Origin: Candidatus Uhrbacteria bacterium
GTDB lineage: Bacteria > Patescibacteriota > Patescibacteriia > UBA9934 > GWF2-40-263
Assembly (NCBI GenBank): GCA_016844925.1
Contig: JAERTI010000043.1
Location: 66,642 to 130,641, forward strand
Reading direction: 5' to 3'
DNA length: 64,000 nucleotides
The position numbers and the translations under genes were made by a program. The notes below the pieces were generated by a model. It saw nothing but the letters and a program-made list of their open reading frames with translations, searched no databases and was not told the origin of the DNA. Below are positions 43,135 to 57,125 of this stretch, in pieces (the first letter of the stretch is position 1; every line of letters starts with the position of its first letter).

Positions 43135-43160
43135 ACCCATAACAACCCAATCCGCGAAGG

Positions 43161-43625: not shown

Positions 43626-43644
43626 AGACCCGTGAACACGAAGG

Positions 43645-43750
43645 GCTAGCGAGGAGTACGTCCAAGCTAGCCACCAGAAATCTGTTCACGATCAGTGATC
43701 GTGACTGGGTTCCTGGTAAGAATGAGCAAACCCAGGAAAGGAGCCAAGGA
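43645..43750 (+). promoter_or_regulatory. duplicated leader region, copy 2, with the same 19-bp palindrome
   Basis: about 90% identical to 43161..43265. Confidence 0.6.
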
Positions 43751-44128: not shown

Positions 44129-44149
44129 TTACGACCTTAGACGAAGGGG

Positions 44150-44240
44150 GCTAGCAAAGATGACGTCTTGCTAGCCACTACCGGCCTGAGCTCGAGTTCC
44201 CTGCCTGCCGGCAGGCAGGTCGAGACCAGATCGGTGGAAC
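44150..44240 (+). repeat. hybrid cassette-boundary element: CTAG hairpin, GAGCTCGAG, 20-bp palindrome CCTGCCTGCCGGCAGGCAGG, TCGAGACC, AGATCGGTGGA
   Basis: combines the L-box of A-type repeats with the GATCGGTGGA end of G-type repeats. Confidence 0.5.
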
Positions 44241-45098: not shown

Positions 45099-45132
45099 CG
45101 CTCGACCGAGGAGAACGTCCTCGTGTCGGGCT

Positions 45133-45174
45133 CCTCAACGTAGAGCTCGAGCTTGCTTGAGACCTGCGTTGAGG
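45133..45174 (+). repeat. attC-like repeat, A-type (CCTCAAC gtagag CTCGAG n4 CTCGAG acctgc GTTGAGG)
   Basis: preceded by GAGGAgaacgTCCTC hairpin. Confidence 0.6.
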
Positions 45175-45260
45175 GGAACACTGTGCATTACCGATTCCTT
45201 CTTGAAACATTCGAGGATGTATCGGTGATGCAACGGAGTGTCACCTCAGAGGAATCTTTC

Positions 45261-45614
45261 ATGTACAAGTACATCGTCGCACTGGCGATCTTCCTGTTCG
45301 CCGCCAACCCCGCCTACGCCTGCTCGCAGGACACTGGCAAGCAGATCCACTTTGAGTGGGAGGGGGAGACCTACGTGGTCGAGGCGCACAGGGATGTCAA
45401 CGCGACCGTGACCAAAGCGGTCACCGGAACCGAGTTCGAGGTCGAGATCGTCAACGCGACGACGCTGATCCTCAAGCAGGGGCGCAGGACGCTCGCTACT
45501 GGGAGCATCTGGGCCTGCACCAAGTGCTTCATCGGTTCGCCCGGCTATGTGACGTGGGAAGGTGAGGAGAGTGCCAAGAACGCCTACGACGCTTGCATCG
45601 ACGCCGCCGGCTAG
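45261..45614 (+). CDS. small secreted protein
   Basis: signal peptide ...ANPAYA|C; alternative ATG at 45228. Confidence 0.5.
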   Translation: MYKYIVALAIFLFAANPAYACSQDTGKQIHFEWEGETYVVEAHRDVNATVTKAVTGTEFEVEIVNATTLILKQGRRTLATGSIWACTKCFIGSPGYVTWEGEESAKNAYDACIDAAG

Positions 45615-45699
45615 AGAAGACAGATAAGTGAGCCCCCGGCTTGCTTCTGCTCTGACGTGGCTACGTCAGACGCGCTCGGTATGGGAATGAACTATTCTC

Positions 45700-45753
45700 T
45701 GCCGAGCTTCACAGCATAGTGGTTGATTACAAAAATCGACCCCTGCGCTGGGG
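45700..45753 (+). repeat. degenerate attC-like repeat (GGTTGATT...TCGAC...GCTGGGG)
   Basis: B-type L-boxes retained, R-boxes diverged. Confidence 0.4.
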
Positions 45754-45801
45754 AAGACTGATCTTCCTTTGAGGCCCGTTCATTCGGGCAAGGATAGCAA
45801 C

Positions 45802-46314
45802 ATGCTGCTGATCGCTCTGACGATCGTGTCCACCATCGCCCACGCTGACCTCACTCCCGTTGGCGCCACCGCCGACGAGGTCAAGGTGGAGGCGGAGCTC
45901 GTGATGGTGAGCTGGTACCGCGACCACGGGGAGACCTGCGAGGTCGAGGGTCCCCACGGTCACATTCAGTACGCCGACGGCACCGACGAGGTCGTGATGC
46001 CGAGCGAGTCCAGCGACGAGTACGTGCTCGACTTCACGTTCTCTCGTGAGCAGTTCGAGGGCAAGAAGCCCGAGGCGAGCTCGGACGATTCCAACGAGAA
46101 GACCGAGGCCATCGACCCCGAGCTGACCCTCAAGTCCCACCCGTTCTTCGAGGAGTGGGACCGCCAGCTCAAGGAGAATGATAGCTTCGGCGAGGCTTTC
46201 GACAAGCAGCTCAAGCTCCAGCTCGCCAAGGAGCAGGCCGAGATCGAGGAGCCCACCGAGTCCGCCACCATCGAGGAGCCCGCCGAGTCCACCGAGGACA
46301 GCCCCTCGAAGTAG
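45802..46314 (+). CDS. secreted acidic protein
   Basis: AAGGA RBS, signal peptide ...TIAHA|D. Confidence 0.5.
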   Translation: MLLIALTIVSTIAHADLTPVGATADEVKVEAELVMVSWYRDHGETCEVEGPHGHIQYADGTDEVVMPSESSDEYVLDFTFSREQFEGKKPEASSDDSNEKTEAIDPELTLKSHPFFEEWDRQLKENDSFGEAFDKQLKLQLAKEQAEIEEPTESATIEEPAESTEDSPSK

Positions 46315-46411
46315 CTCGCCGGAGGTTCTCCTGCACATCCTCTGCGGCCAGATACGCTGGCACGCAGAGCGTCGCATCCCGCGACACGTCCTGAGCAACG
46401 TCTGCTCGGGA

Positions 46412-46453
46412 TTTCAACGTAGAGCTCGAGTTTGCTCGAGACCTGCGTTGAGG
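46412..46453 (+). repeat. attC-like repeat, A-type
   Basis: TTTCAAC...CTCGAGtttgCTCGAG...GTTGAGG. Confidence 0.6.
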
Positions 46454-46506
46454 GCTGAGGCTCTCTTGATCAAATCCTCAGTGCTACTGGGGTAAAGGAA
46501 CACGAC

Positions 46507-46770
46507 ATGTTGATGATCGCTCTGACCCTCCTGATGGGCAACGCGAACGCTGGCATGAAGCGCGGTAAGGCTTCGGCCTCGGACACTACTCCCGTCAGCC
46601 TCTACCACAACGGTGAGGTGGCGGAGCTGGACCGCCAGGAGCTGGTGCAGACTCTGCACGACCTGATGCATCCCAGCTGCGAGGTGAATACCTCGCACGT
46701 CCACCGCGTGAACAAGCATGGTCTGGAAGAGGTCATCCTCATGCCGACCGAGCCGACCACCACCAACTGA
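46507..46770 (+). CDS. small secreted protein
   Basis: GGGTAAAGGA leader, signal peptide. Confidence 0.45.
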   Translation: MLMIALTLLMGNANAGMKRGKASASDTTPVSLYHNGEVAELDRQELVQTLHDLMHPSCEVNTSHVHRVNKHGLEEVILMPTEPTTTN

Positions 46771-46799
46771 CCCGACGAGGTGAACGACTTCGTCGGGAT

Positions 46800-46841
46800 C
46801 CTCAACGTAGAGCTCGAGTTTGCTCGAGACCTGCGTTGGGG
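46800..46841 (+). repeat. attC-like repeat, A-type
   Basis: CCTCAAC...GTTGGGG; preceded by cccgacgagg..ttcgtcggg hairpin. Confidence 0.6.
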
Positions 46842-46950
46842 AACCGCCCCTAAGTAAGATAACCGTCCGTGATCTGCAGCGCGCCGACATTTCCGTCGAG
46901 CAGCGCATATTGCAGCACTGGCAACTTCTGTGCGAGAGCGCGGGGGTATC

Positions 46951-47271
46951 ATGTTTCTGACTCAGATCTACAGCGCCGTGGAAGGTGACTTCAAGGCCAA
47001 CGCCGTCCGTATCACTGAGGTGGAGGCTGGCACAGGTATCTGGCTCGATCCTGAAGCTGATCCGCTCCTGGTCGTCGGTGAGTACATTCTGATGACTTCC
47101 GAAGGGAGGATTCTGGATGAGGATGAGTCCATCGAGGTCACGGTGAGGTCGCAGGGCATTCGTGTCCGCGTTCGTCTGTTCCATGATGGGCATGAGGCGG
47201 CAGCCTGGTGTCTGCTCCAGACAATCGGTAACGCGTCCATCAACACTGTCACGATCGATTGCGATGACTAA
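46951..47271 (+). CDS. hypothetical protein
   Basis: ORF within cassette. Confidence 0.45.
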   Translation: MFLTQIYSAVEGDFKANAVRITEVEAGTGIWLDPEADPLLVVGEYILMTSEGRILDEDESIEVTVRSQGIRVRVRLFHDGHEAAAWCLLQTIGNASINTVTIDCDD

Positions 47272-47380
47272 CGTTAAAGCAACCTGCACGAGACAGTACA
47301 TGACCCCGTCAGGCACGGATGACCTGGCGGGTATGACCGGGCTCAGCTCGGCACGCCTCAAGTACACGCAACGCTTGAGG

Positions 47381-47422
47381 ATCGAACGTAGAGCTCGAGT
47401 CTACTCGAGACCTGCGTTGGGG
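47381..47422 (+). repeat. attC-like repeat, A-type
   Basis: ATCGAAC...CTCGAGtctaCTCGAG...GTTGGGG. Confidence 0.55.
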
Positions 47423-47440
47423 AACGTTCCCTAGAACCAA

Positions 47441-47486
47441 ACCTCGTGCCCGCAAGGGATGTAGCCACAGTAAGAGTGGTGAGAGA
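47441..47486 (+). promoter_or_regulatory. conserved 5'-UTR motif M, copy 2 (stem CCAC/GTGG instead of CCGT/ACGG)
   Basis: compensatory change in the hairpin relative to copies 1 and 3. Confidence 0.55.
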
Positions 47487-47529
47487 ATGTGCGCCTGGGC
47501 GCACGCGGACTTGTCCGCACGGGATACAG

Positions 47530-47952
47530 ATGAAGACGCAAGCGTGTACGGCACTGGCGGTTACCCGCCGGAGTGAGCTGTACATCACGGTTCAGATCTA
47601 CGGAAGTCGCGCGATCGATGAGCCCAACATCAAGGTGCTCGCCCTGAGCGATTTCGTTCGATGGATCGCACCGGGTGTGACCGTTCAGCGCATCGCACAG
47701 AACCTGGTCCGTGTCCGTGAAATCGCCCCCGATTGGACTGCGAAGGTGGTCTACGGTGACGCCATCGGTTTGGGTGAGCCCTGCCTGCTTTCTGACAATC
47801 GCGCCGTAGTGTGTGTCTGGGCGACGGAGGAGGAGGCCTGGGATCACTGGGACGAGGTCATGGATCGCTGGCATCGGATGATGGAAGAAGATGCTCGTTA
47901 CTGGGACGAGCGGACTCTGGAAGAGCTGAGTGACTCGAGCCTGATGGCTTAA
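47530..47952 (+). CDS. hypothetical protein (141 aa)
   Basis: downstream of motif M. Confidence 0.45.
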   Translation: MKTQACTALAVTRRSELYITVQIYGSRAIDEPNIKVLALSDFVRWIAPGVTVQRIAQNLVRVREIAPDWTAKVVYGDAIGLGEPCLLSDNRAVVCVWATEEEAWDHWDEVMDRWHRMMEEDARYWDERTLEELSDSSLMA

Positions 47953-47987
47953 CGAGCCGACACTGGGAGAACGTCCCCGTGTCGGAC

Positions 47988-48058
47988 TCCCAACGTAGAG
48001 GTTGATTAACCACGTAAAACCCTTCGGGTCACGTGGCACGTCGACACCTGCGTTGGGG
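47988..48058 (+). repeat. attC-like repeat, B-type (GTTGAT ... ccacgt-aaaaccCTTCGgggt-cacgtgg ... GTCGAC acctgc GTTGGGG)
   Basis: internal UUCG-type tetraloop hairpin. Confidence 0.6.
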
Positions 48059-48073
48059 AAACCCTGCAACCAT

Positions 48074-48124
48074 CCCTCGCGCTTGGCCTGGCCAAGATGT
48101 AGCCGTGTAAAGACGGTGAGAGAA
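48074..48124 (+). promoter_or_regulatory. conserved 5'-UTR motif M, copy 3
   Basis: GATGTAGCCGTGTAAAGACGGTGAGAGAA followed by GCGGAggtTTCCGC hairpin. Confidence 0.55.
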
Positions 48125-48149
48125 CGCGGAGGTTTCCGCACGGATACGA

Positions 48150-48677
48150 ATGAAACTACGAACACCGGATGTGCACGAGGTTCGTCGGCGGGTCTACCAG
48201 TCCTGCTACGAGCTTCAGCACGCCAGGCAGGTCGTTGATGACGCCTGTCGAGCTGGTAGTTACTGGGCACTGGGCTGCGCACTCCGCGTGGAACAGATCG
48301 CTCAGCAGGCGCTGGCTGAGAATGAGAGAGCTCTGGAGAGGGAGCGTGATTACGCCATCTTCATAGAGCATTTGCGCAAGCATAGTACCGAGATTGCTCG
48401 TAGGCTTTCTCTGGTGCAGGCCCTGGAAGAAGAGTGTGCGTTCCTGGAGAAGAAGTGGGACGACGCTCGAGCTGATTTGGCCCATCAGCTGCGCCTTGCC
48501 AAGCGCCCCGGCCGCCCCGGAAAGAACGCGGCCGATCTCATTGGTGGTTTTGAGGCGGAGGTGGAGATTCACTGCCGCAACTATTTCGAGAAAGAAAGGG
48601 AACTCAGGTGCGCGCGTGAGTGGTGGTACAGGCTCATGTACCCCTGCCACCATAGGCATCTCAAGGTACGCGCGTAA
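48150..48677 (+). CDS. hypothetical helical protein (175 aa)
   Basis: downstream of motif M. Confidence 0.45.
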   Translation: MKLRTPDVHEVRRRVYQSCYELQHARQVVDDACRAGSYWALGCALRVEQIAQQALAENERALERERDYAIFIEHLRKHSTEIARRLSLVQALEEECAFLEKKWDDARADLAHQLRLAKRPGRPGKNAADLIGGFEAEVEIHCRNYFEKERELRCAREWWYRLMYPCHHRHLKVRA

Positions 48678-48726
48678 GACCTTGAGCGAGCTTGCTCGAC
48701 AGAGGAGTACGTCCTCCTGTCGGGCT

Positions 48727-48797
48727 CCTCAACACAGAGGTTGATTAACCACGTAAAACCCTTCGGGTCACGTGGCACGTCGACATCTGCGTTGGGG
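48727..48797 (+). repeat. attC-like repeat, B-type
   Basis: near-identical to 47988..48058. Confidence 0.6.
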
Positions 48798-48828
48798 AAA
48801 CCCTGACTCAGACCTATAGGAGGCCTTT

Positions 48829-49197
48829 GTGCCGCACACCGACAATCAGACTCTCTTCCTTCGGCTGACTCTTGCGGCGTGGATCGCCCAGGAGTTCGGG
48901 ATCGAGCCAGATATGGCCGAGATCGACGCGTTCCTCGCGAAGCTGCAGGACGAAGAGGCCCTGAATAACTTCGATGACCGGGACTCCCGACCGGGGTTCT
49001 GGATCATGGAGAACAAGCTCTTCCAGTACCACCATCACCACAAGCCCGGCTTCTACATCTACAACGTCGACGGTGAGAACTGGCACCGCGACTACAACCG
49101 CATCGACGATCTCAACCGGATCGTCTGGCCCAACCCGGTGATGACCGGCTCGGTTGGCAGCGACTGTGGTCGCTGGGGCTGCTGGGGTCGCTACTAG
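48829..49197 (+). CDS. hypothetical protein with HHHH tract
   Basis: AGGAGG RBS followed by GTG start. Confidence 0.45.
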   Translation: MPHTDNQTLFLRLTLAAWIAQEFGIEPDMAEIDAFLAKLQDEEALNNFDDRDSRPGFWIMENKLFQYHHHHKPGFYIYNVDGENWHRDYNRIDDLNRIVWPNPVMTGSVGSDCGRWGCWGRY

Positions 49198-49298
49198 CAC
49201 CCAGCACACAACCCCGTTAGGCACGGACGACCTAGCGGGCACCCACGTAAAGACCTTCGGTCCACGTGGCACGGCCCAAGTCACGACGCGACTTGGGA

Positions 49299-49340
49299 CC
49301 TGAACGTAGAGCTCGAGTTTGCTCGAAACCTGCGTTGAGG
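49299..49340 (+). repeat. attC-like repeat, A-type
   Basis: preceded by H1 hairpin, UUCG hairpin and cccaagt/acttggg hairpin. Confidence 0.6.
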
Positions 49341-49392
49341 GCTGAGGCTCTCTTGAACACACCCCCGGCAATGTCCGGGTAAAGGCTGCGAG

Positions 49393-49599
49393 ATGTGGAA
49401 TTGGCTGAACCGACTTCTGGGCATCAACCCCAAGAAGAAGGAGTCCACCACCAGGACGAGGACTGGGCTCGGCTCTCAGAACGACGCTTGGCGTCGTGAG
49501 CGCTGCCCGCTTCCTGAGTTCGATTTCAGGGGCCCCACGCGTCGCCGGATTGAGCGAGAGCTCGCCGAACGAGCGCACGCCCGCACCGAACGCTACTAG
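49393..49599 (+). CDS. small basic protein (68 aa)
   Basis: cccggc..ccggg-TAAAGG leader. Confidence 0.35.
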   Translation: MWNWLNRLLGINPKKKESTTRTRTGLGSQNDAWRRERCPLPEFDFRGPTRRRIERELAERAHARTERY

Positions 49600-49628
49600 C
49601 CCGACGAGGTGAACGACCTTGTCGGGAT

Positions 49629-49670
49629 CCTCAACGGAGTTCTCGATAAGATCGAGAGTTCCGTTGAGAG
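49629..49670 (+). repeat. attC-like repeat, C-type (CCTCAAC ggagtt CTCGAT aaga TCGAGA gttcc GTTGAGA)
   Basis: same architecture, different L-boxes. Confidence 0.55.
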
Positions 49671-49805
49671 ATTTTCAAAAATGATTGTTCTTCCGGGGCG
49701 CAGAATACAATTGTGCTCCCTGGAAGGCTGGTCAGTAATCGGGATTGATCAGTCTCTTCTGCTTAGGCAGAGCCAGCATTTGCTGGAACACACGAAGGAG
49801 AAACA

Positions 49806-50135
49806 GTGACCCGCTGTGATAAATGTGGTCTCCCTGTAACAAGGGAAAACAACGCACTTCTGCTTTCGATCGTCGTCAAGCGCATGGTGAAGCACGGAGT
49901 GGATTACGTTCCTGGCGAGTGTAACGCCCTCGATCTCATGGCCATTGTTGTGCTCAGGGGTCGACACTTGCTGCCGGTAACCGAAGGTGATGAGGTGGTT
50001 TGCACTGGCTCCCCAAGCCGCGCACAGTACCTGCCTGGTCAGCCTGAGGATACGCGCGGGTTTCCGCTTGATGAGAATCTTCGTCCCGTCTACGACGCGG
50101 CTTACAATCGTCTGACATCCGGCAGGCCGATCTGA
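49806..50135 (+). CDS. hypothetical protein with N-terminal CxxC
   Basis: AAGGAG RBS followed by GTG; AT-richer cassette. Confidence 0.45.
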   Translation: MTRCDKCGLPVTRENNALLLSIVVKRMVKHGVDYVPGECNALDLMAIVVLRGRHLLPVTEGDEVVCTGSPSRAQYLPGQPEDTRGFPLDENLRPVYDAAYNRLTSGRPI

Positions 50136-50203
50136 TGTAGTCTCATCACTTGCTACGCCCCCCCGACCGAGGACCCGTCTGACAGCAGATGGGGAACGTC
50201 CTC

Positions 50204-50244
50204 GTTCGGGCTCCCAATGGAGCGTTCGATAAGATCGAATGTTC
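50204..50244 (+). repeat. attC-like repeat, C-type variant with compensatory R-box change (CCCAAT / ATTGAGG)
   Basis: C to T in R'' matched by G to A in R'. Confidence 0.5.
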
Positions 50245-50320
50245 CATTGAGGGAAACCTCTTGCACGACAGCTGACGGCTTGCCGTCATAACCATAAGCA
50301 GTCCCTCCCTGGAGTAACAC

Positions 50321-50575
50321 ATGTGGACTGACTGGTTTGAGAACGAGCACGTTGACGCTCTGCTGCAGAGCGCCGCATCGAACTTCCACCTGGTGCAGGT
50401 GGAGATGGTGGACGGAACGATCCACGAGGGTGAAGTCAGCCTCAACGGCGGCATCGAGATCGTCCGTGAGGGTGAGGGAACGACGGAGCTCGACAGCGAG
50501 CAGATCGCCCGCATGCGCCTGACGACCTGGCGCGAGGTCCCGCCCGAGGACCCGTTCAAGGTCGACTGGGACTGA
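50321..50575 (+). CDS. hypothetical acidic protein (84 aa)
   Basis: ORF within cassette. Confidence 0.45.
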   Translation: MWTDWFENEHVDALLQSAASNFHLVQVEMVDGTIHEGEVSLNGGIEIVREGEGTTELDSEQIARMRLTTWREVPPEDPFKVDWD

Positions 50576-50663
50576 GTCCCACCGCACACCCGCCCAGGCA
50601 CACACGACCTGGCGGGTACGACCGAGCTCAGCTCGGCACGCCTCAAGTGAGACGCACTTGAGG

Positions 50664-50705
50664 ACCGAACGTAGAGGTTGAGCCTGCTCGACCCTTACGT
50701 TGGGA
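50664..50705 (+). repeat. attC-like repeat, D-type (ACCGAAC gtagag GTTGAG cctg CTCGAC ccttac GTTGGGA)
   Basis: preceded by H1, CCGAGCTcAGCTCGG and cctcaagtg/cacttgagg hairpins. Confidence 0.5.
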
Positions 50706-50733
50706 AACTTGAAACAGCTAAAGGGGAAAACCC

Positions 50734-51279
50734 ATGAGTGACATGGATACGAGAGTGGGGACGGAGTGCCTCGTGCAGATCGAAGAGATCGACGAGCAGA
50801 TTGAGCGGCTGCAGCAGCGACAGAAGGAGCTGATGGAGCAGGCTCGCGTCTCCACGGCCGTGGCCTACGTGGCCATTCTGGACGTGCAGACCCAGGCCGT
50901 AGACATCTTCCCGGTGTCGTCGGACGACCGGCTCAACGCGTACGGGAACCAGTGCGACTGCGACTTGATGCTCAACACGTGCTACTGCGACGAGAAGTGG
51001 ACGTCGGTCCGCAACTTCTCGTTCGAGGTCATGCTCGACGACCGTCCGTCCTGGCAGAGGCGCCACTCGCCTCGCAAGGATGGTGTCCAGCTCGCCTTCG
51101 AGTACTGGTGCGACAAGCGCGACTACTTCAAGACCTCCACGAGGGGTCTGCCGTACGGTGAGGAGTGTGAGCAGGTGGACTGGGAACGACCTCGCCGCAA
51201 GATGCTGCTGTACGCCACCAGGACCGAAGAAGAGGCTCGCACCTGGGCCGCGTCCAAGACGCAGCAGGCCGCTGGCTAG
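50734..51279 (+). CDS. Cys-rich hypothetical protein (181 aa; CDCD...CYCDEKW)
   Basis: ORF within cassette. Confidence 0.5.
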   Translation: MSDMDTRVGTECLVQIEEIDEQIERLQQRQKELMEQARVSTAVAYVAILDVQTQAVDIFPVSSDDRLNAYGNQCDCDLMLNTCYCDEKWTSVRNFSFEVMLDDRPSWQRRHSPRKDGVQLAFEYWCDKRDYFKTSTRGLPYGEECEQVDWERPRRKMLLYATRTEEEARTWAASKTQQAAG

Positions 51280-51325
51280 AGTCAGAACAACGGCTCGACC
51301 GAGGAGTACGTCCTTGTGTCGGGCT

Positions 51326-51367
51326 CCTCAACGTAGAGCTCGAGCTGACTCGAGACCTGCGTTGGGG
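51326..51367 (+). repeat. attC-like repeat, A-type
   Basis: CCTCAAC...CTCGAGctgaCTCGAG...GTTGGGG. Confidence 0.6.
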
Positions 51368-51438
51368 AGTGCGATGGATGCCCGTAGGGCAACGCACAAC
51401 CTGTACCCGTCCTGGAGAGTCCGGGAAGGAGAGCCAAC

Positions 51439-51654
51439 ATGGCTTGGAAGATTGTGAGTGTGGTGCTGGGCGTGAGTGCGTTCGTGCTCGGTTGCGTCTG
51501 GTTTGTTCTGCTGTGCATCATGACCTTTGGTGTGCTCACCCCTGAGGGGAGCATCGACCAGGTGCTGGACGGCATCTGCTGGACGCTCGCTTGCGGAGCC
51601 ATTGGCATTCCGCTGGCGACGCTGTCGTTGAAGGCTTGGGAGCGCGGAGCGTAG
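51439..51654 (+). CDS. small membrane protein (71 aa)
   Basis: AAGGAG RBS, two TM helices. Confidence 0.45.
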   Translation: MAWKIVSVVLGVSAFVLGCVWFVLLCIMTFGVLTPEGSIDQVLDGICWTLACGAIGIPLATLSLKAWERGA

Positions 51655-51736
51655 CTCCAACACACAAACTCCTGTCAAAGGAGTACGGCCGATACTTATC
51701 GGCACGGCGGGCATAAGAGACATCACGTCTCGCCCG

Positions 51737-51790
51737 TCGCCACTGACTTGGTTTCGATGCAGTAAGATCGAGATCAGATCAGTGGTGTGA
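51737..51790 (+). repeat. possible highly diverged attC-like repeat (CCACTGA ... TCGAT gcagtaag ATCGA ... TCAGTGG)
   Basis: architecture conserved, R-boxes unrelated. Confidence 0.3.
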
Positions 51791-51919
51791 AAACCACTTC
51801 GCAGGATGTTCGTGGGGATTGGTCGACCACGGACGCGAAATTTCTAATCCGAAAGGTACTCTAAGCAGGCTTGCTCGGCTTGCTGCGACCAAAGAGTTGA
51901 GTTCTACAAGTGAGGACTC

Positions 51920-52651
51920 ATGAGCAAGATGGAAGAGATCCGCCAGACGGTGGCGGACAACATGCATCGCGTGGCCAAGCTCGGCCAGTGGCCCAGCCAC
52001 ATCAACGCCGAGAAGAGCCTGCTGAGCCGCATTCCCGAGCCGGGCAAGGAAGCCCCTGGGTTCGACGCCGGCATCGCCTGCGCGCTGGGCCTGATCCCGC
52101 GCGACAAGCAGCAGCTGGCGGCGCAGCTGCACGCCAACTACACCCCCAAGGCGGTGAAGCTGGTGCGGCGCCAGTCCGTTCAGATGCACGAGGACGCCCC
52201 CACCACCTGGTGGCTCGCCGCGTGCTGGCTCTGCGACGAGGCCGGTGTGAGTCAGCGAGACTTCCTGCGCCAGGTGAGTGCGTTCAAGCGCCTCGCTGCG
52301 GATCCGCAGACCAGGCGCAAGGTCGCCCGGGAGGAGCTGGAGCGCAAGAAGAAGCTCTTCGTCGTTCTGGACGGCATCGCCTACGGCGCTCAGGATGGTG
52401 CTGCGCAGGGAGCGTACATCGCTGGGGTGGACCTCGCGGTGGTGTGGATGGAGAAGTACGGTATCTACTTCGTCAGCACCTACCACGAGAGCCTCGGCCT
52501 GGAGGACTTCGTCTGGTCCGACCGTGTCGACGACCAGGGGCGGCTCATGAGCGGCCCGATCCACGGCTCGCGCCAGTTCGTGAAGACCGGCTCCCAGGAG
52601 GAGCTCGGCAAGATGCTGGAGATCGCCAAGGCCCACCTGGCCATCGGCTAG
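51920..52651 (+). CDS. hypothetical protein, paralog family X (PGFDAGIACAL, TWWLAA, SLGLEDF.WSD)
   Basis: about 45% identical to 53453..54202. Confidence 0.6.
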   Translation: MSKMEEIRQTVADNMHRVAKLGQWPSHINAEKSLLSRIPEPGKEAPGFDAGIACALGLIPRDKQQLAAQLHANYTPKAVKLVRRQSVQMHEDAPTTWWLAACWLCDEAGVSQRDFLRQVSAFKRLAADPQTRRKVAREELERKKKLFVVLDGIAYGAQDGAAQGAYIAGVDLAVVWMEKYGIYFVSTYHESLGLEDFVWSDRVDDQGRLMSGPIHGSRQFVKTGSQEELGKMLEIAKAHLAIG

Positions 52652-52737
52652 ATCTCGTCGAGCTCAGCTCGACAAACGACCCTGTTAGGCACGGACGACC
52701 TGACAGGAGCACTCCCAAGTCATCACGCGACTTGGGG

Positions 52738-52847
52738 ACTCAACGGAGAGGTTGATACGAATATTCCTCGAGCAACGTCGAGAGGCTGTATATGCAGCAC
52801 TTCGACAGGCTCAGTGAATATTCGCGTGATTGACACCTGCGTTGGGG
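52738..52847 (+). repeat. attC-like repeat, long B-type variant (110 bp) with nested 10-bp stem ACGAATATTC/GAATATTCGT
   Basis: ACTCAAC...GTTGAT...TTGAC acctgc GTTGGGG. Confidence 0.5.
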
Positions 52848-52897
52848 AAACTGCTTTTCCCACGGTCCGGTTCACGCCGGAAAAGGCAATAGCTGAA

Positions 52898-53239
52898 ATG
52901 TTTGAGTCCGAGGTCCTTAACGGGCTTGCGGTGGTTCTAGTCTACGTTCTGCCGTTTGGATGCGCGTTCCTTATCGCCTACAAAGGAGAGTGGTTCGAGA
53001 GGGTGCGTGCGTTCAGTTCATGGTTCGAGATGGCGATCGGAGACGAGAGTCTCGATGGTTCTCGAAAGAGGCGTGGTGACAGGTACCTGTACCTGGCCAA
53101 CGCGATACTCATCGGCATCTGCACCGGCATGCTCGTGACAACTGGTACACGTGAGTTCAGTGCCTCCGCAACGATCAATCTGGTGGTGTGTCTACTTTGG
53201 GGGGTCTTCCAGATTTACCTCCTGAGGAAGCGACGGTAA
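52898..53239 (+). CDS. membrane protein (113 aa)
   Basis: three hydrophobic helices. Confidence 0.45.
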   Translation: MFESEVLNGLAVVLVYVLPFGCAFLIAYKGEWFERVRAFSSWFEMAIGDESLDGSRKRRGDRYLYLANAILIGICTGMLVTTGTREFSASATINLVVCLLWGVFQIYLLRKRR

Positions 53240-53329
53240 GCACACGGGCCGACTGACGTCGCTCTCGGTTTGCAAGATGACCGAGGGTAGACGATGCCTG
53301 GCGCGAGGAGAACGTCCTTGTGTCGGGCT

Positions 53330-53400
53330 CCTCAACACAGAGGTTGATGAACCACGTAAAACCCTTCGGGTCACGTGGCAGGTCGACACCTGCGTTGGGG
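53330..53400 (+). repeat. attC-like repeat, B-type
   Basis: followed by palindrome ACCTGCCGGCAGGCAGG. Confidence 0.6.
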
Positions 53401-53452
53401 ACTTACCTGCCGGCAGGCAGGAACCCATCTTTCAACTTCAAGGAGGGGTCAC

Positions 53453-54202
53453 ATGACCTTCGACATCAGGGGTGCCGCAGAGGCACTGGAGACCGTGCGT
53501 GACAACGTGGAGCGCGTGGCAGCGCTGGGTGAGTGGAGCGCGAACGAGCACGCCAAGGGGCGTCTGATCGGGCGCGTCCCGCAGGACAACGATGGTGAGG
53601 ACGAGGTACTGGCTCCCGGCTTCGACGCCGGCATCGCCTGCGCGCTGAGCATGATCCCCGAGGACAAGCAGCGGCTCAGCGCCGTCCTGCACGCGGCGTA
53701 CACGCCCGAGGCCATCGCGCAGCTGCGTGGTGAGCTCGAGAACATGACCCCCGGCACCGAGACCACCTGGTGGCTCGCTGCCAGCTCGCTGTGCGAGGAG
53801 GGGAACATCTCCGTGCTCAGCTTCATGGCCCAGGTGCGCCAGTTCGAGCAGCTGATGCTGGATCCGGCCAAGCGCCTGATGGCCGCCAAGGCCGAGTGGA
53901 ACAAGCTCAAGGGCAGCTTCCAGGACATGAACGGTGTCGCCTACACCACGGTGGATGGTGGCATGCAGGCTGGCTACATCGCTGGTCACAAGCTGGCGGT
54001 GGGATACGCCGAGAACTACGGCATCCACTTCGTGGGCACCTACCTGCCCAGCCTGGGCCTCGAGGACTTCGAGTGGTCCGACGTCTGTGACAAGCAGGGT
54101 CGCTCCACCAGCGGCCTGCTCGGACCGAACTTCGCCAAGGTCGGCGATCTGGTCGAGCTCGGTGAGGTCATCAAGATCGCCCGGGCCCACCTGAAGATCT
54201 AG
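53453..54202 (+). CDS. hypothetical protein, paralog family X
   Basis: AAGGAGG RBS. Confidence 0.6.
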   Translation: MTFDIRGAAEALETVRDNVERVAALGEWSANEHAKGRLIGRVPQDNDGEDEVLAPGFDAGIACALSMIPEDKQRLSAVLHAAYTPEAIAQLRGELENMTPGTETTWWLAASSLCEEGNISVLSFMAQVRQFEQLMLDPAKRLMAAKAEWNKLKGSFQDMNGVAYTTVDGGMQAGYIAGHKLAVGYAENYGIHFVGTYLPSLGLEDFEWSDVCDKQGRSTSGLLGPNFAKVGDLVELGEVIKIARAHLKI

Positions 54203-54209
54203 GAGACAG

Positions 54210-54371
54210 ATGAAAGAATGGATTCAGGGGCTGCTGAAAAAGTACTTCAGCCCCCCACCACCGCGACGTCCAACCGTCTACGTGGTGCACGGACCCGCTT
54301 ACCGCTCGCGCTGGAGCTGCCGGTGCGACGAGACGGAACCCGATTGGCAGGACAGCTGCTACTGCGGGTAA
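54210..54371 (+). CDS. small Cys-rich peptide (53 aa; C.C.ETEPDWQDSCYC)
   Basis: AGGAG RBS 4 nt upstream; not in ORF track (under 60 aa); C-terminus resembles 55849..56067. Confidence 0.4.
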   Translation: MKEWIQGLLKKYFSPPPPRRPTVYVVHGPAYRSRWSCRCDETEPDWQDSCYCG

Positions 54372-54414
54372 GAGTCTGACGGCTCGACCGAGGAGAACGT
54401 CCTCGTGTCGGGCT

Positions 54415-54456
54415 CCTCAACGGAGTTCTCGATTTCGGTCGAGACCTGTGTTGGGG
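54415..54456 (+). repeat. attC-like repeat, A/C hybrid (CCTCAAC ggagtt CTCGAT ttcg GTCGAG acctgt GTTGGGG)
   Basis: mixed L-boxes. Confidence 0.55.
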
Positions 54457-54540
54457 AATATCCTGAGTAGGATTGACCTAAATCGTCGCAGATTGGTGTT
54501 GCCTGCAATGCCGATGCTGCACTTCACAGGAGAAGGACAC

Positions 54541-54930
54541 ATGCTGAGGGAACGGCTCGAACAAGGTCGAGGGATCCCTGCCAAGACCGACCACAACAGG
54601 GTTCGGCAGGTGAAGGATGCGCTGGTTCAGGAGCTCGGTGAGCATCTGGGGCGTGAGTACCGATGGCTGGCGGCCTGCACGGTTGCGGTCGAGGGCGGCC
54701 GGTGGGGTGGCGAGCGCCGCCGCAAGCGACGTCTCAAGCTCGCCGCGATGATCGGCGAATGCTACGCTCACCTGGGTGAGCCCAACCCGTTGGCGGAGCT
54801 GCCCAAGGACTGGGAGATGACTGGGCTGTACTACGGCTACGGTGCCATGCAGCGCTACCAGGAGGATCGCGGTGGCAGCATCGAGGGACTCGTCATGATC
54901 GGGCTGCTGGACAGCGGCAAGCTCGGCTAG
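54541..54930 (+). CDS. hypothetical protein (129 aa)
   Basis: AGGAGAAGGA RBS. Confidence 0.45.
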   Translation: MLRERLEQGRGIPAKTDHNRVRQVKDALVQELGEHLGREYRWLAACTVAVEGGRWGGERRRKRRLKLAAMIGECYAHLGEPNPLAELPKDWEMTGLYYGYGAMQRYQEDRGGSIEGLVMIGLLDSGKLG

Positions 54931-55038
54931 CTCCACCTCTGGAGCACACGACCCCGTCAGGCACGGACGACCTGACGGGCGCCCACGTAAAGACCTTCGG
55001 TCCACGTGGCACGCCCCAAGTCACTACGCGACTTGGGG

Positions 55039-55080
55039 ACTGAACGTAGAGCTCGATTGTGATCGAGACCTGCGTTGGGG
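55039..55080 (+). repeat. attC-like repeat, A-type
   Basis: preceded by perfect H1 hairpin CCCGTCAGG/CCTGACGGG and UUCG hairpin. Confidence 0.6.
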
Positions 55081-55163
55081 ACCTGTCCACCGACAGGGGG
55101 GAAACCCAATCGAAACAACGGGCGTCGGCCCGTAAGTCCAGCAGCGCTGGAAGAAAGGAAGAC

Positions 55164-55481
55164 GTGCTTGTTGATGTAATGATCTACTTGGCATGTTGGT
55201 TGGTCGGAGCGGTGTCTGGTCAGCTGATCAGGTTTCTTCCCAAGAGAGATCGGTTTGGCATGAGGCAGGTGGGTTTGATGGCCTTCATTGGTCTGGGCTG
55301 CATGTTGTCTTTGAACGTGATGTTTCTCGATTTCGATGATGCCGCCAAGGTGGCTTCATGGTCGCGGGATGTCACTGGGACCTACGGAACCTTGTTCGGT
55401 TTTTACTTCGGGTCTCTTCACGTCTTCGAGGCGATGGTGAAGTCGAAGAATTCTTCCTCACAACAGGAAAGAAAGAGTTAA
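55164..55481 (+). CDS. small membrane protein
   Basis: start GTG 55164 or ATG 55179. Confidence 0.4.
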   Translation: MLVDVMIYLACWLVGAVSGQLIRFLPKRDRFGMRQVGLMAFIGLGCMLSLNVMFLDFDDAAKVASWSRDVTGTYGTLFGFYFGSLHVFEAMVKSKNSSSQQERKS

Positions 55482-55483
55482 AG

Positions 55484-55693
55484 ATGAAGAAGAATAAGAT
55501 GAGCGAGTGCCGCCAGTTGATTCTTGGCTTAGCCCTCGAATGGTTCTTGTTCCTTCTGGTTGCCATGGCGATTTTCTTCGCAATAAAGTCCAGTGTTTGC
55601 TCAGGTGCTGTTGCTGCTGAACGGTCGGCGATGGAAGGCTATTCGATCTTGAGAGAGGTTCTTTGCGAGGCTATACAGTCAAGCGACACGTAG
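55484..55693 (+). CDS. small membrane protein (69 aa)
   Basis: immediately follows previous ORF; AT-richer. Confidence 0.4.
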   Translation: MKKNKMSECRQLILGLALEWFLFLLVAMAIFFAIKSSVCSGAVAAERSAMEGYSILREVLCEAIQSSDT

Positions 55694-55800
55694 ACCACAT
55701 ATCCTCACACCTGTTACGTTCTTCTGGGCCGCGTGCGTTTCTATCGTACGAGCAGAAGAGGGCAGGGTGAGACGACCTCAAGCGCACGCAATGCTTGGGG

Positions 55801-55842
55801 ACTGAACGGAGAGCTCGATTTCGATCGAGACCTGCGTTGAGG
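55801..55842 (+). repeat. attC-like repeat, A-type; R' GTTGAGGTG doubles as SD for next ORF
   Basis: ATG 6 nt after GAGGTG. Confidence 0.55.
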
Positions 55843-55848
55843 TGAATC

Positions 55849-56067
55849 ATGGAGAACGAAGAAACCATCGAGACAGAAAGGACGGCCATGGACCGATTCA
55901 TTCAGGGGCTGCGGAGTTTCTTCCGCTGGGACCCCGAGTCTGAAAAGGTGCAAGAGATCGCGTTGGTCCCCACCGGACCCAAGCGGAAGCGTCCGCGTCA
56001 CCCCGAGACCGGCTGCTACTGCGAACCGGACCCTGAGTGGCAGGAGTACTGCCACTGCTGGCACTGA
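55849..56067 (+). CDS. small Cys-rich protein (72 aa; GCYCEPDPEWQEYCHCWH)
   Basis: C-terminal motif shared with 54210..54371. Confidence 0.45.
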   Translation: MENEETIETERTAMDRFIQGLRSFFRWDPESEKVQEIALVPTGPKRKRPRHPETGCYCEPDPEWQEYCHCWH

Positions 56068-56109
56068 GCCCTACGGCTCGACCCGAGGAGAACGTCCTCG
56101 CGTCGGGCT

Positions 56110-56151
56110 CCTCAACGGAGTTCTCGATTTCGATCGAAACCTGCGTTGAGG
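56110..56151 (+). repeat. attC-like repeat, A-type
   Basis: CCTCAAC ggagtt CTCGAT ttcg ATCGAA acctgc GTTGAGG. Confidence 0.6.
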
Positions 56152-56185
56152 TGAATCCATCACCTAAAGAAACAGGAGGCAAGGC

Positions 56186-56728
56186 ATGCAAATCGACAGA
56201 GACAGGCACCTGCTGAAAAACATGAGAACGTGGAGCGCGGCTCTGGTGGAAGCGTTCAAGGGGATCTACAAGGAGCCTCTCAAGAACCAGCCCACCGGCA
56301 AGCCCTGGCCCGAAGGGACCAAGCAGTCGCTGGGTCACAGTGGTGGCCTGTGGAACATTGAGCTGCCCACCGGTGAGAAGCTGCAGATCCACATCTCGGA
56401 CAACGTCTCGCGCGAGCCGCTTCCGGAGATTCCGCTGCGATGGTTCCCGGTCGTGGAGATCGAGACGCGCCAGGTTCTGCTGCTCCCCAGGCTGCAGCTG
56501 CAGCTGTGGCAGGGTCACATGGAACCCGAGGAGCTCGACGAGCTTCTCATTCCGGATCTCGATCTGGTGCGCCTGGGCACGCTGGACATCGCGCCGATGC
56601 TGCCCCTCAAGGCCATCGCGCTCATGCTCCTGGTCAAGATGCCGACGCCGATGGGCTACGGCACTCGGGCAGAGGCGCAGACGTTCCGACAGGCACTGAT
56701 GCGAACCTGCGCGGAGCACACCATCTGA
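56186..56728 (+). CDS. hypothetical protein (180 aa)
   Basis: AGGAGG RBS. Confidence 0.5.
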   Translation: MQIDRDRHLLKNMRTWSAALVEAFKGIYKEPLKNQPTGKPWPEGTKQSLGHSGGLWNIELPTGEKLQIHISDNVSREPLPEIPLRWFPVVEIETRQVLLLPRLQLQLWQGHMEPEELDELLIPDLDLVRLGTLDIAPMLPLKAIALMLLVKMPTPMGYGTRAEAQTFRQALMRTCAEHTI

Positions 56729-56784
56729 GCGTGAGTACATGAGCCCTACGGCTCGACCCGAGGAGAACGTCCTCGCGTCGGGCT

Positions 56785-56830
56785 CCTCAACGGAGAGGTT
56801 GATTCGCGAGAATCGACACCTGCGTTGAGG
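56785..56830 (+). repeat. attC-like repeat, short B-type
   Basis: CCTCAAC ggagag GTTGAT tcgcgaga ATCGAC acctgc GTTGAGG. Confidence 0.55.
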
Positions 56831-56871
56831 TGTTACTGAACATCTTGAATCGTCCCACACAGGAAGCAAGC

Positions 56872-57054
56872 ATGCACCCGAGACATCACGCAGACACCCA
56901 GTTCGAGGATGACATCCACGACAGGGGTGGCGAACCCTTCAACGCCATCGACGCGGCCGCGGCTGCAGAGATGGAGCGTCAGCTCGAGGTAGAAGCTGCC
57001 CACGCCGAAGCGCTCGAAGAAGAGCGCTGGCTGTGGTCCGTCGACTACTGCTAG
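56872..57054 (+). CDS. small acidic protein (60 aa)
   Basis: AGGAAG RBS. Confidence 0.35.
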   Translation: MHPRHHADTQFEDDIHDRGGEPFNAIDAAAAAEMERQLEVEAAHAEALEEERWLWSVDYC

Positions 57055-57125
57055 GCTGAGGCGAGGCACGTCCTCACGTTGGAGGATGGTGTATAGAGAA
57101 GACGACTTAGCCCAAGGAGGTGCTC

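What the first reader, a model, noticed from the sequence alone, without database searches (positions are those of the whole stretch)
45100..57090. GAGGA-nnACG-TCCTC hairpin conserved at the 3' ends of many cassettes, just upstream of R''
At least ten cassettes end with a short hairpin: stem GAGGA/TCCTC (variants GGGA/TCCC, GAGG/CCTC) with loop consensus nnACG (gaacg, gtacg, acacg). It is often nested in an outer CGAC...GTCG stem and lies 5-10 nt before CCTCAAC. Examples are at 45108, 47960, 48693, 51295, 53306, 54392, 56084, 56752 and 57060.

The same hairpin flanks the CTAG elements at 43164 and 43648. The conserved loop sequence suggests specific recognition by a protein or RNA.
Basis: seen in the sequence. 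Interest (0 to 1): 0.5.

Follow-up and report, generated by a model that had tools for sequence, protein, structure and literature searches.

The report
ACG-loop hairpins before cassette recombination sites
In a roughly 27-kb array of mobile gene cassettes in a candidate-phyla-radiation bacterium, most cassettes carry a conserved stem-loop with an invariant ACG in its loop just before their recombination site; it is a real, selected structure that folds on the coding strand, but what reads it is unknown.

Summary
GAGGA-nnACG-TCCTC occurs 27 times (≤2 mismatches) against 2.1 expected, and all good copies lie in the cassette array (window 41.2-64 kb).

The hairpin is about 13 bp and ends 5-6 nt before the R'' box of attC-like sites. 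It precedes 10 of the 19 canonical sites. Six others carry different stems with related loops (nnnACGC, CACGGACGA).

It is not simply attC sequence:
- Stems covary while ACG stays invariant, including in two distant lineages (L094, L098).
- It sits beside other site families.
- In relative L082 a 95-nt insertion separates it from R''.

Non-Watson-Crick pairs are almost all G·T on the + strand. Paired intergenic positions evolve half as fast as unpaired ones. No U-tract follows, whereas housekeeping genes here have canonical terminators.

Best reading (confidence 0.42): a non-terminating RNA stem-loop in cassette 3' UTRs of one long polycistronic transcript, presenting ACG to an unidentified factor. 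Main rival: a top-strand DNA accessory of the recombination site.

No integrase lies at either end of the array, and there is no Rfam match. Only four lineages could be sampled.

The parts
41256..41284 (+). Sigma-70-like promoter (TTGACA-17-TATTGT with TG) at the head of the cassette array
   Evidence: 10 of 12 matches. There is no enrichment of promoters inside the array.
41453..41473 (+). Leader hairpin ACTGAGGA[TCACG]TCCCCAGT upstream of the first ORF, followed by CCCAACGAGCTCAACG
43159..43187 (+). Class A hairpin with GCTAG/CTAGC outer stem, loop ACACG
   Evidence: E 0.0014.
43644..43672 (+). Class A hairpin with GCTAGC outer stem, loop GTACG, two internal mismatches
   Evidence: E 0.0023.
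44149..44176 (+). Class A variant AAAGA[TGACG]TCTT in a GCTAGC outer stem, upstream of a family-2 site
45100..45131 (+). Class A hairpin, loop GAACG
   Evidence: hairpin plus attC as RNA: -50.9 kcal/mol, z -6.55.
45133..45174 (+). attC-like site (R'' CCTCAAC ... R' GTTGAGG), short form
   Evidence: The synteny break with L082 falls just after GTTGRGG.
46771..46797 (+). Class A variant CCCGACGAGGT[GAACG]ACTTCGTCGGG, with the loop-closing pair flipped to T-A
47956..47987 (+). Class A variant GGGA[GAACG]TCCC
   Evidence: The L082 orthologue differs by changes that give T-G and G-T pairs.
48694..48725 (+). Class A hairpin, loop GTACG
49600..49626 (+). Class A variant, loop GAACG
50162..50210 (+). 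Class A hairpin split by a nested hairpin inserted in its loop
51293..51324 (+). Class A hairpin, loop GTACG. The L082 orthologue has CGAGGT[GAACG]ACCTCG, a compensatory A-T to T-A change
53296..53328 (+). Class A hairpin with a divergent 5' arm that pairs through 4 G·T pairs
   Evidence: -24.0 kcal/mol on the + strand against -7.2 on the - strand.
54382..54413 (+). Class A hairpin, loop GAACG
56076..56108 (+). Class A hairpin, loop GAACG
56751..56783 (+). Class A hairpin, loop GAACG
57063..57075 (+). Degenerate copy GAGG-CACG-TCCTC inside a 35-nt insertion absent from L082
62550..62581 (+). Class A-like stem (outer stem CTCACCG/CGGTGGG) with a non-ACG loop, TGCTC
47356..47380 (+). Class B proximal hairpin variant, loop ACACGCAAC
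49275..49297 (+). Class B proximal hairpin CCCAAGTC[ACGACGC]GACTTGGG
50641..50663 (+). Class B proximal hairpin CCTCAAGTG[AGACG]CACTTGAGG
52713..52737 (+). Class B proximal hairpin, loop ATCACGC
55014..55038 (+). Class B proximal hairpin, loop ACTACGC
61061..61081 (+). CCCAAGTC[ATACG]GACTTGGG upstream of a family-2 site
61930..61952 (+). CCTCAAGTC[AAACG]GACTTGAGG upstream of a family-2 site
54953..54979 (+). Class B distal hairpin CCCGTCAGG[CACGGACGA]CCTGACGGG. Other copies are at 47305, 49213, 50589 and 52681
55039..55080 (+). attC-like site with a GAAC R'' variant, preceded by class B hairpins

Best explanation
The hairpin is a structured RNA element of the cassette 3' untranslated region. 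The whole array is read from one promoter at 41256 as a long polycistronic transcript. Each cassette ends with one or more strong stem-loops that do not terminate transcription, followed by the attC hairpin.

These stem-loops fold on the transcribed (+) strand. They most likely punctuate and stabilise each cistron by blocking 3'-to-5' exonucleases after cleavage, and by keeping the long untranslated spacers structured. They also present an invariant ACG at the 3' edge of the loop to a trans-acting factor, a sequence-and-structure-specific RNA-binding protein or endoribonuclease, that is not identified.

Shown: the structure, the strand preference, purifying selection, loop invariance, absence of terminator features, and restriction to the array. 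Inferred: that the molecule is RNA rather than top-strand DNA, the stabilising or processing role, and the existence of a reader of the loop.
For: 1. Structure under selection.
- Class A: 89.8% of cells are paired, 5 of 7 pairs change on both sides, and the covariation score is 0.33 against 0.18 (0 of 500 shuffles).
- Class B proximal: 100% paired, 7 of 8 pairs change on both sides, score 0.76 against 0.24.
- Class B distal: 4 of 9 pairs change on both sides.
- Window against L082 orthologous spacers: paired positions 5.1% substituted, unpaired 10.4%, codon position 3 11.1%.

2. Strand.
- Non-Watson-Crick pairs in class A are G·T on the + strand: 7 cells and about 9 independent events by reading, against one C·A.
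- Every class A copy is more stable on the + strand (for example -24.0 against -7.2 kcal/mol). ACG hairpins overall favour + in 29 of 43 cases.
- The hairpin plus attC folds as RNA with z -6.55. The bottom strand as DNA gives z -2.9.

3. Loop.
- ACG is invariant in alignments A4 and A5.
- ACG sits at the loop's 3' edge in 27 of 210 unique intergenic hairpins, against 6.8 expected, on 17 different stems.
- The same loops (GAACG, ACGACGC, CACGGACGA, ATACG, AGACG) occur on different stems in L094 and L098, where the cassette protein is only 51-54% identical.

4. Not a terminator. No U-tract follows, and there is no enrichment of terminator-like sites in the array (16 found, 14.3 expected). Housekeeping genes of the same window end in canonical hairpin plus U-run terminators.

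5. Wider context.
- GNRA, UNCG and CUUG tetraloops are over-represented among neighbouring hairpins.
- 5' UTR hairpins next to ribosome-binding sites show the same + strand bias.
Against: - No transcript data were available, so RNA and top-strand single-stranded DNA cannot be told apart by sequence alone.
- The + strand is G-rich, which by itself favours G·T pairs. The non-ACG hairpins show an even larger + strand bias.
- The hairpin keeps a tight 4-6 nt spacing to R'', while its distance to the stop codon varies from 0 to about 120 nt. That points to a link with the recombination site rather than with the ORF end.
- In the more distant array L100 the homologous outer stem and R''-like box persist with non-ACG loops, so ACG is not universally required.
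- Only four lineages were available, and many copies are paralogous, so counts are not independent.
- No candidate reader protein was found. None of the cassette proteins for which a Pfam status is on record (the L082-L085 orthologues and L093) or that were scanned against NCBIfam (six from the window) has a family.
Confidence: 0.42

Rival explanations
1. DNA-level accessory of the recombination site. The hairpin folds in single-stranded top-strand DNA, which here is probably the lagging-strand template. There it acts on the neighbouring attC in one of three ways: insulating R'' from mispairing with ORF sequence, extending the helix next to the R box, or binding an accessory or recombinase subunit through the ACG loop.
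For: - Constant 4-6 nt spacing to R'' across classes and site families.
- A hairpin stands next to the R''-like box even in L100, where the loop differs.
- ACG-loop hairpins precede at least three different palindromic site families.
- Rising cumulative GC skew suggests the + strand is the leading strand, and therefore the lagging-strand template (inference).
- Cassette gain and loss at these sites is real.
Against: - In known integrons the recombining strand of attC is the bottom strand (established knowledge), and the hairpin is weakened there by A·C mismatches.
- No integrase or other recombinase lies in 41 kb upstream or about 9 kb downstream of the array.
- In L082 one copy is separated from R'' by 95 nt and is still intact.
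- No known attC function needs a flanking hairpin.
Confidence: 0.27
2. Passive passenger. The hairpin is just the 5' part of a longer species-specific attC repeat unit, homogenised by gene conversion, and has no function of its own.
For: - Class A is always linked to the R'' variant GGGCTCCTCAAC or GGGATCCTCAAC.
- Units of 65-75 nt spanning hairpin plus attC repeat at 87-100% identity between unrelated cassettes (families D1 and D3).
- Chromosomal integrons are known for highly uniform attC repeats (established knowledge).
Against: - Compensatory changes keep the stem.
- Stems evolve more slowly than codon positions 1 and 2: 5.1% against 7.0%.
- The hairpin combines with three different attC bodies and with non-attC families.
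- The loop is conserved on unrelated stems in distant lineages.
- One copy is retained after being separated from R'' in L082.
Confidence: 0.13
3. Intrinsic transcription terminator that isolates each cassette.
For: A strong GC-rich hairpin right after the stop codon.
Against: - No U-tract follows, and none of the copies is picked up by the terminator scan.
- The same genome uses canonical hairpin plus U-run terminators for housekeeping genes.
- Only one promoter heads the array, so termination after each cassette would silence the rest.
Confidence: 0.05
4. Mimic of the tRNA-Arg(ACG) anticodon arm, edited by the adenosine deaminase TadA. This is a special case of the RNA reading.
For: TadA edits mRNA hairpins that carry UACG (PMC12255301). 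Some loops here contain UACG (GUACG, AUACG, AAUACG, ACUACGC).
Against: - The required motif is a 7-nt YUACGAA loop with the edited A in the middle.
- Here the base before ACG is any of A, U, C or G, ACG sits at the 3' edge of loops of 5-9 nt, and no AA follows.
- No loop matches YTACGAA.
Confidence: 0.03

Closest known systems
Integron gene cassettes with attC sites; arrays without integrase (CALIN, clusters of attC sites lacking integron-integrase)
   Same: - One-directional array of small promoterless ORFs behind a single promoter.
- Each ORF is followed by an imperfect palindrome with the inverse core ..YCAAC and the core GTTGRGG in 7-5-7 geometry, with a variable apical part of 4 to about 110 nt.
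- Cassette presence and absence between relatives breaks at the GTT core.
   Different: - No integrase lies at either end.
- Several non-canonical site families share the array.
- The host is a Patescibacteria (CPR) bacterium.
- A conserved extra hairpin just 5' of R'' is not a described attC feature (my knowledge; there is no Rfam family).
Species-specific chromosomal attC repeats such as the Vibrio cholerae repeats (VCR)
   Same: A highly uniform repeated unit at every cassette end, probably homogenised within a genome.
   Different: In a VCR the conserved part is the attC palindrome itself. Here the conserved extra part lies outside R''..R', forms its own helix, covaries and occurs with other site types.
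REP/BIME intergenic palindromes of enterobacteria
   Same: Repeated, non-terminating intergenic stem-loops inside operons. They are known to protect upstream mRNA from 3' exonucleases (established knowledge).
   Different: REPs are scattered genome-wide, carry a GTAG tetranucleotide and are tied to RAYT transposases. These hairpins are restricted to the array and have a conserved loop.
VapC-mt4 (PIN-domain toxin) targets: ACGC or AC(A/U)GC within an intact stem-loop
   Same: Class B loops read nnnACGC in a stable stem-loop. Recognition of sequence plus structure is the mode proposed here (PMC4705866).
   Different: Known targets are tRNA anticodon loops in Mycobacterium. Class A has ACG followed by the U of the closing pair (ACGU, not ACGC). 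No PIN protein was identified here. This is a lead only.
TadA substrates (tRNA-Arg2 and mRNA hairpins with UACG)
   Same: An ACG-containing hairpin loop.
   Different: The loop length, the register and the flanking YU..AA requirement are not met.
RNase III processing hairpins between cistrons of phage T7 early mRNA
   Same: Intergenic hairpins that punctuate a long polycistronic transcript without terminating it and leave a protective 3' stem (established knowledge).
   Different: T7 sites are longer, with internal loops and no conserved apical loop. No cleavage data exist here.

Membership tests
Integron attC site | Inverse core R'' (RYYYAAC) and core R' (GTTRRRY) as the outermost inverted repeat | tested here: met
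   Nineteen sites read ..CCTCAAC, CCCAAC or xGAAC ... GTTGRGG on the + strand. AAC and GTT are kept. The R and Y positions fit only loosely.
Integron attC site | R''-spacer-L'' ... L'-spacer-R' geometry with a partly unpaired spacer and a variable central part | tested here: met
   The layout is CCTCAAC-GTAGA-GCTCGAG ... CTCGAGA-CCTGC-GTTGAGG. The central part ranges from 4 nt to about 110 nt. The bottom-strand DNA fold shows unpaired spacer positions.
Integron attC site | Recombination crossover at G|TT of R', so that cassettes begin at TT | tested here: inconclusive
   Fourteen syntenic blocks between the window and L082 break within or just after GTTGRGG. The shared 7-mer prevents single-base resolution.
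Integron attC site | Extrahelical bases on the folded bottom strand that set strand choice | tested here: inconclusive
   The short sites have a perfect CTCGAG/CTCGAG L pair with no bulge. The longer ones may have one. The IntegronFinder attC model was not available.
Complete integron | An intI tyrosine recombinase gene and attI next to the first cassette | tested here: not met
   Only selected ORFs were scanned. Pfam found no integrase domain in the ten ORFs of window 29.6-43.1 kb or in ten further ORFs between 4.8 and 29 kb. Most other large ORFs of window 1-24 kb were not scanned. None appears in the precomputed Pfam table for the ~9 kb after the array end in L093, or in the two flanking genes scanned against NCBIfam. 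This fits a CALIN. An intI elsewhere in the genome could not be checked.
attC proper (is the hairpin part of it?) | The element lies between R'' and R' and is needed for the palindrome | tested here: not met
   - The hairpin lies wholly 5' of R'' and folds on its own.
- Six of the 19 attCs carry other hairpins instead.
- It also occurs with CTAG and family-2 sites.
- L082 has a copy 95 nt away from R''.
Intrinsic (Rho-independent) terminator | GC-rich hairpin immediately followed by a U-tract | tested here: not met
   No T-run follows any copy. The scan found no such site at the hairpins. Housekeeping genes here do have them.
TadA editing substrate | A 7-nt loop YUACGAA in a stem-loop | tested here: not met
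   The loops are GAACG, GTACG, ACACG, nnnACGC and CACGGACGA. None matches YTACGAA.
VapC-mt4-type RNase target | ACGC or AC(A/U)GC inside an intact stem-loop, and a cognate PIN toxin | tested here: inconclusive
   The sequence part is met by class B loops but not by class A (ACGU). No PIN protein was sought genome-wide. Cleavage cannot be tested with these tools.
REP/BIME | Genome-wide dispersed intergenic palindromes with a conserved GTAG, associated with a RAYT | tested here: not met
   The models hit only the array: none in window 1-41 kb and none in the flanks of the relatives. There is no GTAG.
Any Rfam family | A match at or near the gathering score | tested here: not met
   No Rfam match falls in 41-64 kb at gathering threshold. 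At E up to 5 only three chance-level hits appear.

The most novel reading that the evidence does not exclude
The ACG-loop stem-loops are the recognition signal of a lineage-specific factor that marks cassette 3' ends in integrase-less arrays of CPR bacteria. Candidates are a loading or accessory site for a non-IntI recombination machinery, or for the still unknown process that attaches recombination sites to genes (cassette genesis). This would explain why the same loop precedes three or four unrelated palindromic site families at a fixed 4-6 nt distance.
Probability: 0.12. Interest if true: 0.85.

Novelty: new variant of a known kind. Interest (0 to 1): 0.55.

Why it matters
Integron cassettes are usually described as an ORF plus an attC site. 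How cassettes are made, and how long arrays are expressed, are both open questions.

Here cassettes carry a second, independently selected structured element with a sequence-invariant loop. It is shared across cassettes with different recombination-site families and across diverged lineages of a poorly known bacterial group.

If it works in RNA, it is a new structured motif that governs expression or stability of cassette transcripts. If it works in DNA, it is an unrecognised accessory of cassette recombination.

Either way it gives a concrete handle, ACG-to-other loop mutants with stem-compensating controls, and a search model for finding such arrays and the partner protein by co-occurrence.

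Tried and rejected
1. Public-collection scans for the hairpin plus R'' pattern or for the short attC found nothing: viral, GTDB genomes and JGI metagenomes. Relatives had to be reached through a cassette protein and exact-protein look-ups instead.

2. The closest genome by RlmN, a Candidatus Uhrbacteria MAG (L002), has no array at the locus. An apparent GTTGAG strand bias there was only a coding-strand effect.

3. More distant homologues of the cassette protein (L089) sit among small genes with shared hairpins (L089 IGRs folded; L090-L092 not inspected), and neither covariance model hit L089, L090, L095 or L097 above chance; L099's spacers were not analysed.

4. A strict gap-free count of G·T against A·C was uninformative for the ACG hairpins (1 against 1), because bulges stop the extension. 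It was replaced by energy comparison and curated alignments.

5. An enumeration of all stems of 7 bp or more with G·U allowed was too noisy.

6. Loop-to-R' complementarity (AACG:CGTT, ACGC:GCGT) was considered and dropped, because family-2 sites lack the complement.

7. Complementarity between the 5' UTR loop CGTAT and the ATACG loop was judged likely chance.

8. Resemblances to the pMV158 nick site TACTACG/AC, to the ssoA CS-6 element and to IS200/IS605 ends (all recalled from memory) were not pursued. No HUH gene is present, and the strand evidence does not favour them.

9. Literature searches for integrons in CPR, or for hairpins upstream of attC, found nothing relevant.

Full report
CONTEXT

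The window is a bacterial chromosome segment. It holds a 16S rRNA gene, two tRNAs and a SAM riboswitch, plus rlmN and rpsP at 39.3-41.0 kb.

The closest RlmN in 185,579 species genomes is 64% identical. It comes from a Candidatus Uhrbacteria MAG of the Patescibacteria/Parcubacteria group, so the host is very probably a CPR bacterium.

Small + strand ORFs follow one another from a strong promoter at 41256-41284 to the window end. Each is followed by structured spacer DNA. A Logan contig that overlaps the window end (L093) shows the array stops about 5 kb further on, before smc, an nrnA-like gene and clpP.

The ORFs scanned on either side of the array show no integrase, though most large ORFs of window 1-24 kb were not scanned. 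None of the cassette products checked has a Pfam or NCBIfam family.

THE RECOMBINATION SITES

Nineteen sites read ..YCAAC ... GTTGRGG with attC-like 7-5-7 geometry and an apical part of 4 to about 110 nt.

A related organism (L082-L085; cassette protein 90% identical) has the array at the same rlmN-rpsP locus. Fourteen syntenic blocks are interrupted by cassettes present in only one of the two, and the breaks fall at or just after GTTGRGG. So these are working recombination sites, and the array behaves like an integron cassette array without an adjacent integrase (CALIN-like).

Other palindromic 3' elements share the array: family 2, the CTAG family and family 3.

CHECKING THE OBSERVATION

The motif is strongly enriched: 27 hits against 2.1 expected. 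It is confined to the array.

The full element is a 13-14 bp hairpin, GCTCGAC-CGAGGA-[GAACG or GTACG]-TCCTCG-T-GTCGGGC. It ends 5-6 nt before the AAC of R''.

Of the 19 canonical sites:
- 10 are preceded by this class A hairpin;
- 1 by a copy split by a nested hairpin;
- 1 by the same stem with a TGCTC loop;
- 6 by class B modules, a proximal hairpin with loop nnnACGC, AGACG or CACGCAA and often a distal one with loop CACGGACGA;
- 1 by another hairpin.

At 43159 and 43644 the CTAG arms are the outer stem of the same hairpin. The 57060 copy is degenerate and lies in a 35-nt insertion absent from L082.

IS IT JUST A LONGER attC?

No, although it is linked to attC.

Evidence for linkage: class A always goes with the R'' variant GGGCTCCTCAAC or GGGATCCTCAAC, and hairpin plus attC repeat as 65-75-nt units between unrelated cassettes.

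Evidence for independence:
(i) Stems covary.
- Class A: 5 of 7 pairs change on both sides, score 0.33 against 0.18, 0 of 500 shuffles.
- Class B proximal: 100% of cells paired, 7 of 8 pairs change on both sides, score 0.76 against 0.24.
- Class B distal: 4 of 9 pairs.
(ii) Orthologous copies differ by compensatory or wobble changes. For example, window 51293 CGAGGA[GTACG]TCCTTG corresponds to L082 CGAGGT[GAACG]ACCTCG, and window 47956 TCCCCG corresponds to L082 TCCTGG.
(iii) Class A combines with three different attC bodies, and with CTAG-type and family-2 sites.
(iv) In L082 one copy is intact although a 95-nt three-hairpin insertion separates it from R''.
(v) In two further lineages (L094 and L098; cassette protein 51-54% identical) the same loops sit on different stems next to attC. 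Examples are GCTCGC-GAGGA[GAACG]TCCTC-G-GCGAGC, CCCCAGGA[ACGACGC]TCCTGGGG, CCCACCAGG[CACGGACGA]CCTGGTGGG and GGCCGG[ATACG]CCGGCC.

LOOP CONSERVATION

A, C and G are the invariant loop columns in both alignments.

Across 210 unique intergenic hairpins from five loci, ACG at the 3' edge of the loop (with 0 or 1 trailing base) occurs 27 times. Shuffling loop letters gives 6.8 on average and at most 19 in 2000 shuffles. The 27 cases sit on 17 different loop-proximal stems, and ACG is the commonest trinucleotide at that position.

In orthologous pairs the loop changes only at non-ACG positions.

A more distant array (L100) keeps the outer stem CCCGA/TCGGG and ATCCCAAC but has CTCTC or GTTCT loops. 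ACG is therefore lineage-specific rather than universal.

WHICH STRAND, AND WHAT FOR

Departures from Watson-Crick pairing in class A are G·T on the + strand: 7 cells, against one C·A by reading.

All class A copies fold better on the + strand, in the extreme case -24.0 against -7.2 kcal/mol. Hairpin plus attC folds as + strand RNA into two clean adjacent helices (-50.9 kcal/mol, z -6.55). The bottom strand as DNA reaches only z -2.9.

Paired intergenic positions are substituted half as often as unpaired ones, and less often than codon positions 1 and 2 (5.1%, 10.4% and 7.0%).

The caveat is that the + strand is G-rich, and non-ACG hairpins show an even larger + bias. The strand signal therefore applies to the spacers as a whole.

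No U-tract follows the hairpins, and terminator-like sites are not enriched. Housekeeping genes of the same window have textbook terminators.

With one promoter for the whole array, the simplest reading is a non-terminating 3' UTR stem-loop in a long polycistronic RNA. It would stabilise or punctuate cistrons and display ACG to some reader.

The tight spacing to R'', and the presence of a hairpin at that place even without ACG (L100), keep a DNA-level accessory role as a serious rival. That role would be on the top strand, since the bottom strand is disfavoured.

COMPARISON WITH KNOWN READERS OF ACG LOOPS

TadA needs YUACGAA in a 7-nt loop (PMC12255301). That requirement is not met here.

VapC-mt4 needs ACGC or AC(A/U)GC in an intact stem-loop (PMC4705866). 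Class B fits on sequence, class A does not, and no PIN protein was identified.

There is no Rfam family. I know of no description of a conserved hairpin 5' of attC, and literature searches found none.

VERDICT

This is a new variant within a known kind of system, integron-like cassette arrays. Interest is moderate. The limits are that only four lineages were sampled, there are no expression data, and the recombinase is unknown.

Noticed in passing
window 44178-44232, 44586-44618, 51740-51785, 59210-59250, 59991-60031, 61085-61124, 61954-61992: A second family of cassette-end palindromes (CTACTGACCCGCGCTCGA..TCGAGAGCGGATCGGTGGA) has no AAC/GTT core. The cassette between 59254 and 60031 is absent from L082 exactly between two such sites, so they also recombine. 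Two T-G wobbles favour the + strand.
   Followed up: partly
window 52756-52830; L082 about 5440, 6110, 7680, 9870, 12100, 15100: An approximately 80-nt structured module (ATACGAATATTCCTCGAGCAACGTCGAGAGGCTGT..GCAGCACTTCGACAGGCTCAGTGAATATT) sits in the apical part of many attC sites. Orthologous cassettes differ in whether they carry it, so it behaves like a small insertion element or a swappable module.
   Followed up: partly
window 48006-48038, 53348-53380, 62597-62629 (inside attC) versus 49239-49271, 54979-55011 (upstream of attC): The hairpin CCACGTAAAGACC-UUCG-GGTCCACGTGG, with a C(UUCG)G tetraloop, occurs both inside the attC loop and as a free 3' UTR module. Hairpin modules are shuffled between positions.
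   Followed up: partly
window 44285, 47470, 48100, 49365, 62030, 62665, 63440: Conserved 5' UTR modules: a short hairpin followed by TAAAGG or GGTGAGAGGA just before the start codon of unrelated cassettes. They probably control translation initiation.
   Followed up: no
window 57055-57090: A 35-nt insertion relative to L082 holds a degenerate hairpin followed by CCTCACGTTGGAGG. It looks like an R''/R' pair fused without L boxes, possibly a recombination scar.
   Followed up: partly
L093 5684-6424; L094 2620-3372; window 51920-52651 and 53453-54202: A 246-aa gene with its own promoter just after the array end is a paralogue of two cassettes. In lineage L094 the corresponding gene is itself a cassette with hairpins and attC. 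This could be a case of cassette capture or domestication. The family has 293 homologues and no known domain.
   Followed up: partly
window 1-26000 versus 26000-64000: GC content jumps from about 45-50% to about 55-64% near 26 kb. The array, and a block of unknown genes at 27-39 kb, are far more GC-rich than the ribosomal and pilus gene region.
   Followed up: no
window 41256-41284; L093 about 5400; L100 about 150: Near-identical promoter-like stretches (TTGACAAAAG...TATTGT or TATCTT) occur at the head of the array, just after its end, and at the head of a related array that starts next to a tRNA gene in L100.
   Followed up: no
window 43188-43235, 43673-43720: The CTAG cassettes end in a different palindrome (CCACCAGAAATCTGTTCACGATCAGTGATCGTGACTGGGTTCYTGG). 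The deletion relative to L082 joins at GrTTCCTGG, so this is a third site type with a GTT-containing core.
   Followed up: partly
window 36099-36201 (- strand): A SAM riboswitch (55.5 bits) lies upstream of a minus-strand ORF whose translation looks atypical. The downstream gene was not identified.
   Followed up: no
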